A stretch of 63,812 nucleotides of DNA, the filler included, from Licmophora abbreviata (Eukaryota): the NCBI GenBank assembly GCA_900291995.1. It is 23 parts of 23 records of this genome, joined end to end, with 100 filler letters (N's around TTAATTAATTAA, not from the genome) between each part and the next. Parts side by side here need not be neighbours in the genome. Positions count along the whole stretch, not along the records: positions 62,675 to 63,812 come from OLMU01006084.1; 22 more parts are not named here. One strand, written 5' to 3'. The notes beneath the pieces are model-generated. The model worked only from the letters and a program-made list of their open reading frames with translations. It made no database searches and was not told the DNA's origin. Both the position numbers and the translations under genes were made by a program. This document shows positions 57,163-63,812 of the stretch, piece after piece (position 1 is the first letter of the stretch; each line of letters opens with the position of its first letter).

Positions 57163-58604
57163 ATGCTACGTCAGATTCGTCGTACTGCAACAAGGGCGGT
57201 AGTGAGTACCGTTGCTGTCGTTGGATTGGTCGAAATCACGACACAGCTCCCATCGCAAGGCCGATCCTCCAAAACCTACCACTGGCTCTCGGATGAAATC
57301 GTTACCCCGACACTGCGTCGACTTTTGGACCCTGAAACAGCTCACAATGTGGCGTTGGAATGTACCAGACGTAACCTGGCCCCGAGTACCGACCGTCGGC
57401 CGTCGAGCAGCAGTTGAGACCATACAATAGCAACGGCACGAAGGGTGATGGTATCCGACCTTTTGCCAAGTACCCAGACGTGGCCTTTCCAAATTTCCTC
57501 GGTTTGGCCGCTGGGTTTGATAAAGACGGAGTTGCTATTGACTCGCTTCTCAATTTGGGCTTTGGATTTGTTGAAATTGGTTCTGTCACGCCCCTTCCGC
57601 AACCTGGAAACCCGCAGCCACGCATGTTTCGCTTGCCTCTCGACCGGGGTGTCATTAACCGCTATGGCTTCAACTCGCAAGGCGCGGATGTTGTGGCAGA
57701 AAATCTGCGAGAATATCGAAATCAGGGGGATCCTGAGGGCAAACAAGAGCTAGGAGGAGACGATGGCGAGGATGAGTCTGCCAGTCCGCATTCCACGCTG
57801 AAACTCGTTGCCCGGCAGATAGAACATCTTGTCATTCGGCCGTTGCTCCCGGAAAAAAACTTCTTCTTCATCTGCAGGCTTGGTGGGCGTCAACTTGGGC
57901 AAAAACAAAGCCTCCGAGAATCAAATTGAGGATTATCGGCATGGTATTCAGCAACTGGGTCCGTACGCAGATTATCTCGTCATTAATGTATCGAGTCCGA
58001 ACACGCCAGGCCTTCGTGAATTGCAACGACCGGAATCGCTGCGAGAACTCCTGACCGCTGCGTCGGAAGCGCGGGATGCGTTGGAAGCACCGGTCCCTCT
58101 CTTGGTCAAACTAGCACCTGACTTGACCGATGAAGAGCTGGGGGATATTGCAAAGACAGTATTGGAATGCAACGTTGATGGTATGGTGGTGTGCAACACG
58201 ACAAACTCGCGTCCCTTGTCAGTCTTGTCAAGGGAAAAACAGGAGACAGGTGGCTTATCTGGTGCTCCCCTCAAGGACAGATCCACCGAGTGCATTCGCA
58301 TCTTGTACGAGGCTACTGGTGGAGATGTACCAATCATTGGAGTGGGCGGCGTGGGCTCGGCTCAGGATGCCTACGAAAAGCTCAAGGCGGGCGCATCATT
58401 GATTCAGATTTATAGCATGATGGTCTATGAGGGTCCTGGCGTAGTGACGCGGATCCGACACGAGTTAGCGGAGCTACTGAGACAGAATGGGCATAGGAGT
58501 GTAACGGATGTCTCGGTATGGATCAAGACGACATCTACTGGAGGAAGCGCGAAGAGAGCATGTTGAAACGACAAAACGAAGAGAAGGTTCTCGTATCAGA
58601 ATAG
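57163..58604 (+). CDS. DHODH: Dihydroorotate dehydrogenase (quinone, class 2), with three apparent frameshifts
   Basis: [59 protein letters not shown]; frame changes near 57385, 57855 and 58512. Confidence 0.92.
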
Positions 58605-58634: not shown

Positions 58635-59756
58635 CTAAAATGTGGCCACTTCAGCCGCTGGGGAGCTTTCAGTCTTGTTGGGCATAGATGGCAAAGAGTA
58701 CCCCTGATCACAAATGTATTTCTCAGTGGAGTCCCACAAGCTTTGGCGCAGCATAGAGTCCTGAGCAGCTGCTGTAGGAGTGGTCACCTTACAATCCGAA
58801 TAATACGCCCCATTTTCGACCTCCGAAGCCAGAGCACAAAATACGTTTGTTGCGGCACCTTGTTCGATGGTCTTATCGGCAATCAGTCGCGTGAGCGGCA
58901 TGAGTAAGGGGTTCGAGTAGCGCCACAAATTGGTACGAATGACGCCAGGATGCAACGATACCGACGACACATCGTCATGGCCACATGCTTCCAGCTGATC
59001 CTGAAGTGCTTTCGCAAAGACAACATTGGCCAATTTGCTAATTCCGTACGCTCCCCACGGGGTATACTTTTCCTTATGGTAGACGTCCCATTCCTCCACA
59101 GTGGAGGACGGCGCCATGCTATGTGCGGTGGACGCCACAGTAACAATACGACCATTCTCGTTCAATTTAGGAAGTAACAAGCGTGTCAACATGTGATGAC
59201 CCACATGGTTCGTTCCGAACTGTAGCTCCAGACCTTGCTTCGTTTCTGTCCGAGTCGGCACAGCCATGACCCCCGCGTTATTGACAATGACGTCAATACC
59301 ACTACTGCCGAATTTATCAACAACAGTCTCCGATGCCTTCTGGATCGAGTCCATGTCGGCAAGGTCAAGCTGTTGGATTGTCACTCGGGAACGACACCAC
59401 CCTGGAAGACTTTCTTCCACTACTTTCTCGGCGCTGTCGACATTGCGAGCACACAGAATCACCTGCATGCCAGTCAAGGCCAAGGACTTTACCGTCCACA
59501 CACCAATGCCCGAGTTTCCACCAGTCACGAGGGCCACGCCACTTTTCGACGGTGGCGCGTCTTCGTCGTTGTTGAGTTGCTTGGGAACATACGACGCAAG
59601 GCGGTTCGAACGATTCAGCTCTTCCACAACGTCAAGAGCCGTACTCTTTTTGCCGAGACTGGCGGCTTTGGGAGACGAGGAAAAGGACCAAGCGAACAAA
59701 CTGAAGGGCGAAGAGGTCATGACGGTTGCCACAAGAAGAAGTTTTGAGAGAAGCAT
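58635..59756 (-). CDS. Short-chain dehydrogenase/reductase (retinol dehydrogenase/Tic32-like) with presequence
   Basis: TGGNSGIG, NNAG, YGISK, LHPGVIRT. Confidence 0.9.
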   Translation of the reverse strand: MLLSKLLLVATVMTSSPFSLFAWSFSSSPKAASLGKKSTALDVVEELNRSNRLASYVPKQLNNDEDAPPSKSGVALVTGGNSGIGVWTVKSLALTGMQVILCARNVDSAEKVVEESLPGWCRSRVTIQQLDLADMDSIQKASETVVDKFGSSGIDVIVNNAGVMAVPTRTETKQGLELQFGTNHVGHHMLTRLLLPKLNENGRIVTVASTAHSMAPSSTVEEWDVYHKEKYTPWGAYGISKLANVVFAKALQDQLEACGHDDVSSVSLHPGVIRTNLWRYSNPLLMPLTRLIADKTIEQGAATNVFCALASEVENGAYYSDCKVTTPTAAAQDSMLRQSLWDSTEKYICDQGYSLPSMPNKTESSPAAEVATF

Positions 59757-60610
59757 GGGGCCAGGATGAAAATGTGAACTGATTGGCCGCAGAGAACAGA
59801 AGAAAGCTTTTTGAGGCTAACTTCTTTGAACATCGATGCAGAAAGTCAATGAGCGGTGTGAAACAGCCTCCTTGGCTCTTGCTGTGTCGAAATCATCCAC
59901 ATGACTGCGAGAAAAGTGCGACTGAGTCATCATCTGTCAGTTCCAAAGTCAGTCATGGGTAATGGCGTCATACGNNNNNNNNNNNNNNNNNNNNNNNNNN
60001 NNNNNNNNNNNNNNNNNNTTAATTAATTAANNNNNNNNNNNNNNNNNNNNNNNNNNNNNNNNNNNNNNNNNNNNGAGAAGAACCAACGGAGCGATGAAGC
60101 GGAGGAAAAAACGATATCCTACCATGGTACTTGGTCAGCAACTTGCTAAGATACAGCTTACTGTGTGTGTGTGTGCGGGATGACGAGTATCATAGTGATC
60201 GCAAAGAGGTTCGCGGAGGAAGCGAAATGTATCATACTATTATACAGGTACATTCATAATCCGCGCCCGCCTCGCCTATACTCTCACATTTATCTATCCC
60301 CAACAGACAATCCTGCAGCGCCGGCCGACAAGAGTTTTATCAATATCATACCAATGGTCCTCTTGTATACCGCTCACCACTGACTATCATTAGTGGTCGA
60401 TACCGGTATGCCTGCATAGCCAATTCTTCAATTTTTACTTTTTTCTTCTGCGATTATGAGAGTGCGTTCCTCTCGTCGTCGTCGCCGTTCGTCCACACCG
60501 CACACCGGCCTCTTTCACAATTAACCGCCGGCATCGGTACGACGTACGCCTTTTCATAAAACGGCGTTGAGGATTGCGCATTCCTTGACAACAGAAAGTG
60601 TGTCTTTGGC

Positions 60611-61892
60611 ATGAGGAGACGCGCTGTGAAGGTGCCGGTGGCGCGGTTGATGACGGCATTGCGATGCTTGACAGCGGTTGTGATCCTCGTCACCATGCGT
60701 AACATCCACTTCATCTTGACTGGTGGCCTTTCCGATTGCGAACTGAGCTTACAGGCGGAGCCGGAGAAGGTTCTCATTTTTACTTGGCTTTTTGGGGAAA
60801 TGAAAAGCAACACTCGCCATCTTCAATTGTTTATCGAATCGGCGCGCGGGTGTGGAGTTGATGTTGCGATTGTCGGATCCCCAGAACCAAATTGGAGGTC
60901 CCCCTTGCCCCCAAATGTGTTTCATATACCAGTCACGTGGGATGAACTCACAGACAGAGTGAAATTTCGAGTCTTTGACGGTGTGGAACCAGGGAAATTG
61001 CGGCAGAATCCCGAGTCCAAGTACGGCTACTACAAGATTAGTAAGTGACGACATTCTTGGTTGCGTGCGCTTGAAGACGTCGTGATTCTCAGTCGTCTAA
61101 CGCAAAGACTTCTTATAAACAGATGACTTCAAACCTTTGTTTGGATATCTCTTTCCTGAGCACGTCAAAGAATATCAATTTTGGGGATATGTCGACAATG
61201 ACGTACTTCTGGGCAACATTCGCCGCTTCTTGGCCCCCGAAAGACTCGCTGTGTCCGACATTATCAGCGCTGTTCCAAAACAAGATCAGAGTCTCATATT
61301 TGGTGGCTTCACACTTTATCGCAACATACCGAAAACAAACGAGCTATTTCGACTTGCAAAGCGCCCACCAGAGGAAATTTTCGCCGTTCAGAAAACTCAA
61401 TACTTTGACGAAGCTGGCGGTAAAAACGAGGGTGACGGCTCTGGCTTGGAATCCTCCATTCAGGGCATTATGAACGAGTTTAGCCAGCGACTTGGCATCC
61501 GGTTCACAGGCATAGTTAGAAGAACTGTGTGGGATGGTGTCTGTCTCGGCGACTCAAATTTAGGACCGTGTTTCGGCTGTGAATTGTCTCATCGGCAGGT
61601 CGATGGCCAGCAAGTGTTGAAGGAGGTCTGGTCCAGACGCAAACGAACTCACAAAAACGAAATAATACTCTGCCACTTTCAGCATACCAAGAAACTCATG
61701 GAGAAGTACCTGGAATCAGAAGCTCTGATGAACGATCTACTGAAAGTGGGACACTTTCGATACGATATCCATGGAGGCTTCTTCCGCGTGAATGGGGCAC
61801 GCTTTCCCCACCAGGTTCCTGTTTTGACTGTCCCTAGATCACCGGCAGAGGCGAGGTCAAAGGAATTCTGGAAAAACGTCACCGGCGACTAG
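60611..61892 (+). CDS. Type II membrane DUF6625-like putative glycosyltransferase; intron 61041-61122
   Basis: Splicing gives YKINDFKPLFGYLF...FWGYVDNDVLLG (DxD motif); later YFDE. Confidence 0.65.
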
Positions 61893-62674: not shown

Positions 62675-63812
62675 CAAACTCCTCAGCAAGCTCTCGAACA
62701 TGCGACTTCTCGTAGTGCCCAATCGGGAAGAGAACACGCTGTAGCTGATCTTGCGTGAGGGCGCAGAGAAAGTAACTTTGGTCTTTTACAGGATCCGGCG
62801 CGCGTAGCAGTCGAGTCAGACCAGTCCCGCCGTCCTTTGTGAGCTGAGCATAGTGACCCGAAGCGACGTGGTCAAACCCTCGTCCTTCAATTGCTTCGTA
62901 GAAGCAACCAAACTTGACACGTGAATTGCACATAATGTCCGGATTCGGTGTTCGACCTCGCTCTGCCTCGTGGACCGCATACGAAATTACTCGATCCTTG
63001 TACTCTTCCTGCAGCGAAATCGTCTCAAGAGGTACTCCTGCTTGCTCACATACTGCCTGGCACATGCGAAAATCGTCCTCCCATGGACACTGTCCCAAGT
63101 GAGCAAGCTCATCTTCTAGCCAAATCTTCAGGTAGAAAGCAGTTACATTGTAGTTCTGTCGAACGAGCAGATTGAGTGCGACGGAAGAATCAACACCTCC
63201 TGACAATAGCATCGCCACGGTCGGCCTCTGCTCGTCCTCCGTGTCATGGACTTGTCTCTCTGCTTGAGATAATTGTGGCCGATTGGGCTTGATCTCAAGC
63301 AAGCTCCGAACCTGGTCTTGCACCACTCGCATCATGCTTGCTAGTCCATCGTTTCGCCCTCTAGTAAGCGTACCACGTAGACCGAGATAGTCCGCTACTC
63401 TTTCGGGATCAATCTGGAGTATGTGCTCCGCAGTGGGTGGCTGCGGATAGATAAATCAAATGGGACACCTCCTGCAAGCGTTCGCGACAGCAACGCCAGC
63501 AAGCCACGGCCAGTCATGGCGTCGGCCTCTCCATCCAGCCAAACCCGGTACGTTTGGGATTGTTCAGCCGATCCCGAACAGTCCTCTGGCACCAGTATTG
63601 TTCGCACCTTTACATTGGCCACACACCCCCTCACACGATCTAACGGAGATGTCAGAATGCCTCGACGAGACGATTTGAACAGTTCGTCGAACGTGGCCCC
63701 CTTTCCGTAAACTCGCTCAAATATTTCTCGACATTCCACGGCATCCGCATCAATGGGTACGTAACGACGTTCCACAACGAGGACCCAGTCGTTCTCATCT
63801 GCACGGAAGTCA
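62675..63812 (-). CDS. mnmA: SufE-like domain fused to tRNA 2-thiouridylase MnmA; truncated at both ends, one frame break near 63445
   Basis: RVRGCVANV, DGEADA..RGLLALL and LGL...RNDGLASM (SufE); SGGVDS, TPNPDIMCN, SGHYA and KDQSYFL (MnmA). Confidence 0.85.

What the first reader, a model, noticed from the sequence alone, without database searches (positions are those of the whole stretch)
62675..63812. SufE-MnmA fusion: built-in sulfur relay for tRNA 2-thiolation
Seen: the SufE-like C-terminal helix region (TAEHILQIDP..LGLRGTLTRGRNDGLASM) runs in frame into the MnmA catalytic domain. The SufE Cys motif (RVRGCVANV) lies just upstream, across a single frame break. Known: SufE accepts persulfide from SufS, while E. 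coli MnmA receives sulfur through IscS/TusA-E. Inference: an organellar, probably plastid, MnmA fed directly by the SUF desulfurase through a fused carrier.
Basis: partly seen in the sequence, partly recalled or inferred. Interest (0 to 1): 0.7.

Follow-up and report, generated by a model that had tools for sequence, protein, structure and literature searches.

The report
Lipid-type barrel inside diatom SufE-MnmA
This diatom gene joins a sulfur-carrier domain (SufE) to the tRNA-thiolating enzyme MnmA, a fusion already reported in malaria and Toxoplasma parasites, but here the carrier domain is interrupted by an extra domain predicted to fold like animal fatty-acid-binding proteins, which may bind a small hydrophobic molecule or a membrane.

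Summary
The fusion is real. The frame break is most likely a one-base assembly error: two independent runs carry an extra base there, and the closest homologue aligns straight across. The SufE cysteine is kept in 116 of 116 homologues that span it. A likely plastid-targeted SufS and a separate SufE-BolA are in the same genome. The fusion and the relay idea are published for Toxoplasma and Plasmodium, the fusion runs from red algae to apicomplexans, and this scan found it at least six times before on other DNA. They are the end of a ~160-residue insert between SufE helix 2 and the cysteine loop, present in 41 of 120 homologues. AlphaFold models of two homologues give it a FABP-type barrel (Z 16.9, Foldseek E 2e-7), invisible to Pfam. 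It was probably gained once and lost several times. I found no mention of it in print or in earlier notes. Its function is untested, and only its last strands lie in this window. Verdict: new variant of a known kind.

The parts
63704..63812 (-). Last two strands of a ~160-aa insert predicted to fold as a FABP-type beta-barrel; the rest runs off the contig. Includes the conserved C-x-E-x-F motif (63707-63733).
   Evidence: Residues 4-36 of the upstream frame match insert-profile positions 130-162, 21.7 bits, best of 200 shuffles 4.1 bits; fold from homologue models
63294..63655 (-). SufE core (Cys loop, strands, C-terminal helices). The two N-terminal SufE helices would lie before the barrel, off the contig.
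   Evidence: Pfam PF02657 halves; read-through with X covers profile 2-106, E 1.5e-41; homologue model matches SufE 1wlo Z 15.8 over residues 47-367
63623..63625 (-). SufE persulfide-site cysteine codon
   Evidence: Cys in 116 of the 116 homologues (of 120) that span the column; 4 are cut short
63442..63443 (.). Frame break, most likely a one-base assembly deletion
   Evidence: Extra G in contigs of X1 and X3; P0001 aligns across it, 67% over 382 columns
63222..63293 (-). Variable linker between SufE and MnmA
   Evidence: Poorly conserved in alignment A1; low pLDDT at 376-382 in the P0003 model
62676..63221 (-). MnmA catalytic (HUP) domain: PP-loop 63186-63203, CPWEDD 63072-63089, D-x-x-C 62928-62939; continues on G000:C6083 with the third Cys and two tRNA-binding domains
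   Evidence: Pfam PF03054 E 3e-62; NCBIfam MnmA 208 bits here plus 121 bits on C6083; contigs abut in frame

Best explanation
This is one nuclear diatom gene for a likely plastid-targeted MnmA whose fused SufE domain would take sulfur from SufS and pass it to the MnmA active site, and whose SufE domain carries an inserted, predicted FABP-type barrel that likely serves as an optional ligand- or membrane-binding module. Shown: domain order, all catalytic motifs, conserved SufE Cys, one reading frame in related runs, insert position. Inferred: plastid import (from homologues), SufS to SufE-Cys persulfide transfer, hand-over to the D-x-x-C/Cys site and thiolation of U34 in plastid tRNA-Lys/Glu/Gln. 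Predicted: the barrel fold. Speculative: that the barrel binds a neutral hydrophobic ligand or docks on a plastid membrane, about 25 residues upstream of the Cys, and so tunes sulfur loading.
For: One frame; continuous SufE-to-MnmA ORFs in genomic loci L106-L108. Fusion conserved: 118 of the 120 best longer homologues carry PF02657 plus PF03054; Cys 116/116. Plastid: 63 of 92 long Met-starting homologues pass a crude signal-peptide-plus-Phe test, no control run; orthologues localise to the apicoplast (PMC9420914, PMC10219651); fusion named only in red algae and red-plastid lineages among 20 representatives looked up. Partners in G000: SufS above the TIGR01979 cut-off with a signal-peptide-like start, a separate SufE-BolA, a second eukaryotic MnmA. 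Barrel: pLDDT 87.8; ten best VIA rows are FABP-type, Z 13.9-16.9, next 10.1; Foldseek FABP4 E 2e-7; same result in the full-length model; insert present in transcript-derived proteins (P0054, P0120).
Against: No biochemical test of the relay exists in the papers read. B. subtilis MnmA, which has no SufE domain, complemented the Plasmodium knockout (1 of 4 attempts; PMC10219651), so the domain is not strictly needed there. Land-plant and bacterial relatives lack it. Whether D-type MnmA uses a persulfide or a [4Fe-4S] cluster is unresolved (PMC11784392). The targeting peptide and most of the barrel of this very gene are missing from the assembly. The barrel is absent from 79 of 120 homologues (some are 5'-truncated), is less conserved than the SufE core (26% vs 52% mean identity) and has no sequence match to FABPs. 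The two runs with the extra base are low-depth and from one study.
Confidence: 0.6

Rival explanations
1. The SufE domain supplies sulfur to build or repair a [4Fe-4S] cluster on MnmA (or stimulates SufS to release sulfide), as proposed for the plant SufE3-quinolinate synthase fusion, rather than relaying a persulfide to tRNA.
For: E. coli D-type MnmA is reported to bind a [4Fe-4S] cluster through Asp99/Cys102/Cys199 (PMC8053098, abstract and section titles); the same D-x-x-C plus Cys set is here. SufE3 precedent is recalled; only its paper title was seen.
Against: Loss of SufC/SufD or SufE does not destroy the apicoplast while loss of SufS or MnmA does (PMC10219651), which fits a route independent of the SUF scaffold. 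The cluster model is contested (PMC11784392).
Confidence: 0.2
2. The barrel is a neutral passenger: an old insertion tolerated in a surface loop, kept only as a stable fold and lost freely.
For: Insert-bearing proteins are not one clade (AU p 3e-7); 7 changes on the careful tree, at least 4 forced. Close relatives differ (P0086 with, Thalassionema P0043 without). No FABP Arg/Tyr pair.
Against: Kept in Chaetoceros, Attheya, Dactyliosolen and this lineage, with near-fixed residues (W 44/45, V 44/45, G 41/45, E/Q 44/45, C 33/45). A 160-residue insert beside an active Cys would be expected to decay or be deleted if useless (inference).
Confidence: 0.35
3. The frame break is real in the source strain (null allele or pseudogene), or is removed by a 26-nt GT-AG intron at 63441-63466.
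For: The assembly has the break, and a 26-nt GT..AG stretch would restore the frame. The source reads were not available.
Against: Two near-identical runs have the extra base. It is the only plastid-type MnmA found in G000. Introns seen elsewhere in this genome are about 80 nt. P0001 encodes a matching peptide at the site.
Confidence: 0.07

Closest known systems
Apicoplast MnmA of Toxoplasma gondii (TGGT1_309110; PMC9420914) and Plasmodium falciparum (PF3D7_1019800; PMC10219651)
   Same: N-terminal SufE(-like) domain fused to a D-type MnmA; plastid location; the same relay was proposed.
   Different: No FABP-type insert is mentioned in the passages read. The Babesia and Theileria proteins seen here have no match to the insert.
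Red-algal and insert-less diatom SufE-MnmA (Porphyridium, Agarophyton, Galdieria, Cyanidiococcus, Thalassiosira, Seminavis, Phaeodactylum cluster)
   Same: Same architecture and SufE Cys.
   Different: Helix 2 to Cys spacing has a median of 29 residues against 204 in insert-bearing forms (n 60 and 38).
Intracellular lipid-binding proteins (FABP, CRBP, CRABP, UnaG, LBP-8, SAHS)
   Same: Predicted ten-stranded barrel with helix-turn-helix lid; Z 16.9, rmsd 2.2 A, 126 of 138 residues aligned to LBP-8.
   Different: Nested in an enzyme instead of free-standing; no Pfam or PDB sequence match; Glu/Phe where FABPs have Arg/Tyr, closer to the CRBP Gln/Phe (register inferred; residue roles from PMC3344936); the family is described as absent from plants and fungi (PMC3483278, one passage).
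E. coli IscS-TusA-TusBCD-TusE-MnmA and B. subtilis YrvO-MnmA
   Same: Same end reaction and D-type catalytic residues (PMC7025502, PMC10219651).
   Different: Sulfur comes through separate Tus carriers or directly from a desulfurase; 0 of 80 closest bacterial loci have SufE fused or within the flanks.

Membership tests
MnmA (D-type) | PP-loop SGGxDS | tested here: met
   63186-63203
MnmA (D-type) | D-x-x-C plus distal Cys, plus one further Cys | tested here: met
   D-x-x-C at 62928-62939, CPWEDD Cys at 63087-63089, distal Cys on C6083; motif definition from PMC7025502
MnmA (D-type) | Catalytic, central and C-terminal domains | tested here: met
   NCBIfam NF001138 profile 2-177 in the window and 181-345 on C6083; each half alone is under the 284-bit cut-off; in-frame junction
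MnmA (D-type) | s2U34 formation on tRNA | not testable with these tools
   Needs an assay
SufE | Pfam PF02657 above gathering score | tested here: inconclusive
   Window halves 15.6 and 19.3 bits, cut-off 27; 28 of 28 long insert-bearing homologues pass
SufE | SufE fold including the two N-terminal helices | tested here: met
   In homologue P0003: Z 15.8, rmsd 3.0, 134 of 136 residues of 1wlo. The N-terminal helices of the window's own gene are off the contig.
SufE | Conserved persulfide Cys | tested here: met
   63623-63625; 116 of 116 spanning homologues
SufE | Accepts sulfur from and stimulates SufS | not testable with these tools
   Needs biochemistry
Plastid-targeted diatom protein | Signal peptide plus Phe-type transit peptide | tested here: inconclusive
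   5' end missing for this gene; 63 of 92 homologues pass a crude, uncontrolled test
iLBP/FABP | Ten-stranded barrel with helix-turn-helix lid | tested here: met
   Predicted for homologues P0003 and P0005; only the last strands are in the window
iLBP/FABP | Sequence match to PF00061 or PF14651 | tested here: not met
   0 of 30 proteins at E up to 1; no FABP among 28 PDB sequences at E up to 10; Atlas feature scores 0.76-0.86, leads only
iLBP/FABP | Arg-x-Tyr carboxylate clamp on the last strand | tested here: not met
   Glu 38, Gln 6 of 45; Phe 33, Tyr 11 of 45. The register against FABP is inferred from recall, not from a printed alignment.
iLBP/FABP | Binds a hydrophobic ligand in the cavity | not testable with these tools
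   Needs ligand capture or a structure. Filed as 'folds like a FABP', not as a member.

The most novel reading that the evidence does not exclude
Many diatoms have a ligand-sensing FABP-type barrel wired into the sulfur-carrier loop of their plastid tRNA thiolase. A lipid, pigment-derived or electrophilic metabolite bound in the cavity (lined by a conserved Cys and Glu) would gate sulfur loading, tying plastid translation to lipid or redox state. A same-site insert in Triparma would date it to before diatoms.
Probability: 0.2. Interest if true: 0.8.

Novelty: new variant of a known kind. Interest (0 to 1): 0.5.

Why it matters
How sulfur reaches MnmA in plastids is open, and the persulfide-versus-cluster question is unsettled even in E. 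coli. A one-chain SufE-MnmA with a conserved Cys is a clean test system, and culturable diatoms offer forms with and without the insert. The insert places a fold described as animal-specific inside a plastid enzyme, next to a reactive cysteine. If it binds a ligand it would be an unrecognised control point on plastid tRNA modification; if not, it is still a well-dated case of domain insertion and repeated loss.

Tried and rejected
No RNA holder was listed for this stretch; X2 is only guessed to be RNA and stops short of the break; X5-X7 laid nothing. The 5' part of the gene was not found in G000 with three queries, and C6085 is not its continuation; the assembly is fragmented, so this is not absence. 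No free-standing relative of the barrel was found: 0 of 162 candidates; 3 of 1134, all fragments of the same gene; no PF00061 in G000. These searches are word-based or of low reach. Galectin-10 hits (E 0.05-0.2) were rejected as chance. The SufE (C2281) and MnmA (C2212) on GC-rich G000 contigs were set aside as bacterial contamination. A bacterial source of the fusion was not seen in 80 loci, the best of 474 confirmed from 12 of 64 parts of the collection. Literature searches with no relevant paper on the insert: 0; 0; 1, unrelated; 1, unrelated. Figure 3-supplement 8 of PMC10219651 (the SufE alignment) and all supplements were not seen and could bear on apicomplexan inserts.

Full report
Observation. 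Window 62675-63812 is one 1138-base contig between N spacers, G000:C6084. On the minus strand two frames overlap near 63440. The upstream frame holds RVRGCVANV and matches Pfam SufE positions 35-81; the downstream frame matches SufE 82-120 and then tRNA_Me_trans at E 3e-62.

The frame break. Of four runs laid, two cover the place, and both (X1, X3; two samples of one study, depth under 5) have one extra G behind 63442; the X3 contig spans 63334-63531 with no other difference. Read through with X, the protein aligns to its closest homologue P0001 at 67% over 382 columns with 7 gap positions. A 26-nt GT-AG intron would also restore the frame, but introns seen elsewhere in this genome are about 80 nt. 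I take it as an assembly error (about 0.9). The 3' part of the gene is on C6083, which abuts in frame and supplies the third catalytic Cys. The 5' part was not found.

The fusion is common and known. Of the 120 best longer homologues, 118 carry both PF02657 and PF03054; the named ones are diatoms. The SufE Cys is present in all 116 that span it. A full HMMER search gave 150 representatives, 64 with the SufE part. Of 20 looked up, named SufE-bearing ones were Porphyridium, Agarophyton, Cyanidiococcus, Galdieria, Triparma, Chromera, two Babesia and Theileria; the two land-plant proteins (Vaccinium, Selaginella) lack it. None of 80 close bacterial loci has SufE fused or in flanks of up to 4 kb, while the same profile finds both free SufE genes of G000. 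Yang et al. 2022 report a SufE domain in Toxoplasma MnmA (PMC9420914, passages). Swift et al. 2023 report a SufE-like domain in Plasmodium MnmA and propose this same relay (PMC10219651, passages and part 1 of section 7). Six earlier notes of this scan describe the fusion in other genomes.

Compartment and partners. Of 92 long, Met-starting homologues, 63 pass a crude test for a hydrophobic signal peptide followed by a Phe motif; no control was run. G000 holds a SufS above the TIGR01979 cut-off with a signal-peptide-like start, a separate SufE-BolA gene and a second, intron-bearing MnmA without SufE that is probably mitochondrial (location inferred). So the fused SufE is an extra, dedicated copy.

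What was missed. The first ~36 codons of the contig do not belong to SufE. In 41 of 120 homologues a ~160-residue insert lies between SufE helix 2 and the Cys loop; 37 of these built the profile and 4 were found by it. Helix-to-Cys spacing has a median of 204 residues with the insert and 29 without. The window's residues 4-36 match the end of this insert at 21.7 bits against at most 4.1 in 200 shuffles, and its nearest relatives on the tree all carry it. The AlphaFold model of full-length P0003 (mean pLDDT 84.6) matches MnmA (Z 32.7), SufE as one fold spanning residues 47-367 (Z 15.8, 134 of 136 residues) and, nested inside at 84-249, UnaG and other FABPs (Z 14.9) (Foldseek). The insert of P0005 folded alone (pLDDT 87.8) gives ten FABP-type chains at Z 13.9-16.9 before the next family at 10.1, and FABP4 at E 2e-7. 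By sequence it is invisible: no lipocalin family in 30 proteins, no FABP in the PDB profile search, Atlas scores of 0.76-0.86 only. It is in transcript-derived proteins, so it is not an unspliced intron. Its last strand has C-x-E-x-F (C 33, E 38 or Q 6, F 33 or Y 11 of 45), which the window keeps. FABPs use Arg126/Tyr128 and retinol-binding proteins Gln128/Phe130 (PMC3344936, passages); my mapping onto those positions is from recall. One paper passage says FABP genes are not found in plants or fungi (PMC3483278), though the top Atlas hit was a mostly chytrid cluster, so the fold is probably not confined to animals.

History. The insert is in Chaetoceros, Attheya, Dactyliosolen and the window's group, and absent from Thalassiosira, Cyclotella, Thalassionema, Seminavis, Entomoneis and the Phaeodactylum cluster. 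On MnmA-domain trees the insert-bearing proteins are not one clade (19 against 24 rows, AU p 3e-7; 7 changes, 4 forced). Trees used subsets: 121 rows after dropping 10 C-truncated proteins, 43 and 40 picked rows. With one shared site and one shared profile, a single early gain with repeated loss is simplest (inference). Triparma has an insert of similar length at the same site, but its kinship to the barrel is inconclusive. Among the 150 representatives only 9 matched the insert.

Mechanism. Most likely plastid SufS loads a persulfide on the fused SufE Cys, which hands it to the MnmA catalytic cysteines for attack on adenylated U34 (inferred from known SufE and MnmA chemistry). Against a strict need: B. 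subtilis MnmA without SufE rescued the Plasmodium knockout in 1 of 4 attempts. The alternative, supply of a [4Fe-4S] cluster, stays open because the D-type mechanism is disputed (PMC8053098, abstract; PMC11784392, abstract and section 8; types defined in PMC7025502, passages). For the barrel I favour an accessory role in binding a neutral hydrophobic ligand or a membrane (about 0.5) over a neutral passenger (about 0.35); nothing here tests either.

Novelty. The fusion is known. The nested barrel was not found in the paper searches or in earlier scan notes, both of limited reach. It is a prediction from homologues, and only its end is in this window. New variant of a known kind; interest 0.5.

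Noticed in passing
G000:C2212 (L012) and G000:C2281 (L010): GC-rich, intron-free contigs with bacterial-type mnmA, a response regulator and sufE; they look like alphaproteobacterial contamination of the assembly.
   Followed up: partly
P0178 (EEC45088.1) in the cluster of P0008: The NCBI Phaeodactylum tricornutum model is partial and starts at the MnmA domain, while longer members of its 90% cluster have the SufE domain. The annotation hides the fusion.
   Followed up: partly
P0102, P0106, P0110, P0184: Some homologues near Seminavis have a SET domain region joined in front of SufE-MnmA (about 1150 aa). It may be a real fusion or read-through of a neighbouring gene.
   Followed up: no
P0200, P0327 (Triparma laevis): Insert of about 155 aa at the same SufE site, weak in-register similarity to the barrel.
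   Followed up: partly
window 60560-61892 (+): Two-exon gene with an intron of about 80 nt near 61041-61122; the second exon matches DUF6625 (E 2e-24).
   Followed up: partly
window 57823-58566 (+) and 58635-59816 (-): Dihydroorotate dehydrogenase and a short-chain dehydrogenase with a signal-peptide-like start; on another contig, unrelated to the finding.
   Followed up: partly
G000:C5727 (L011 982-2230): SufE-BolA fusion with a signal-peptide-like start, the likely housekeeping plastid SufE.
   Followed up: partly
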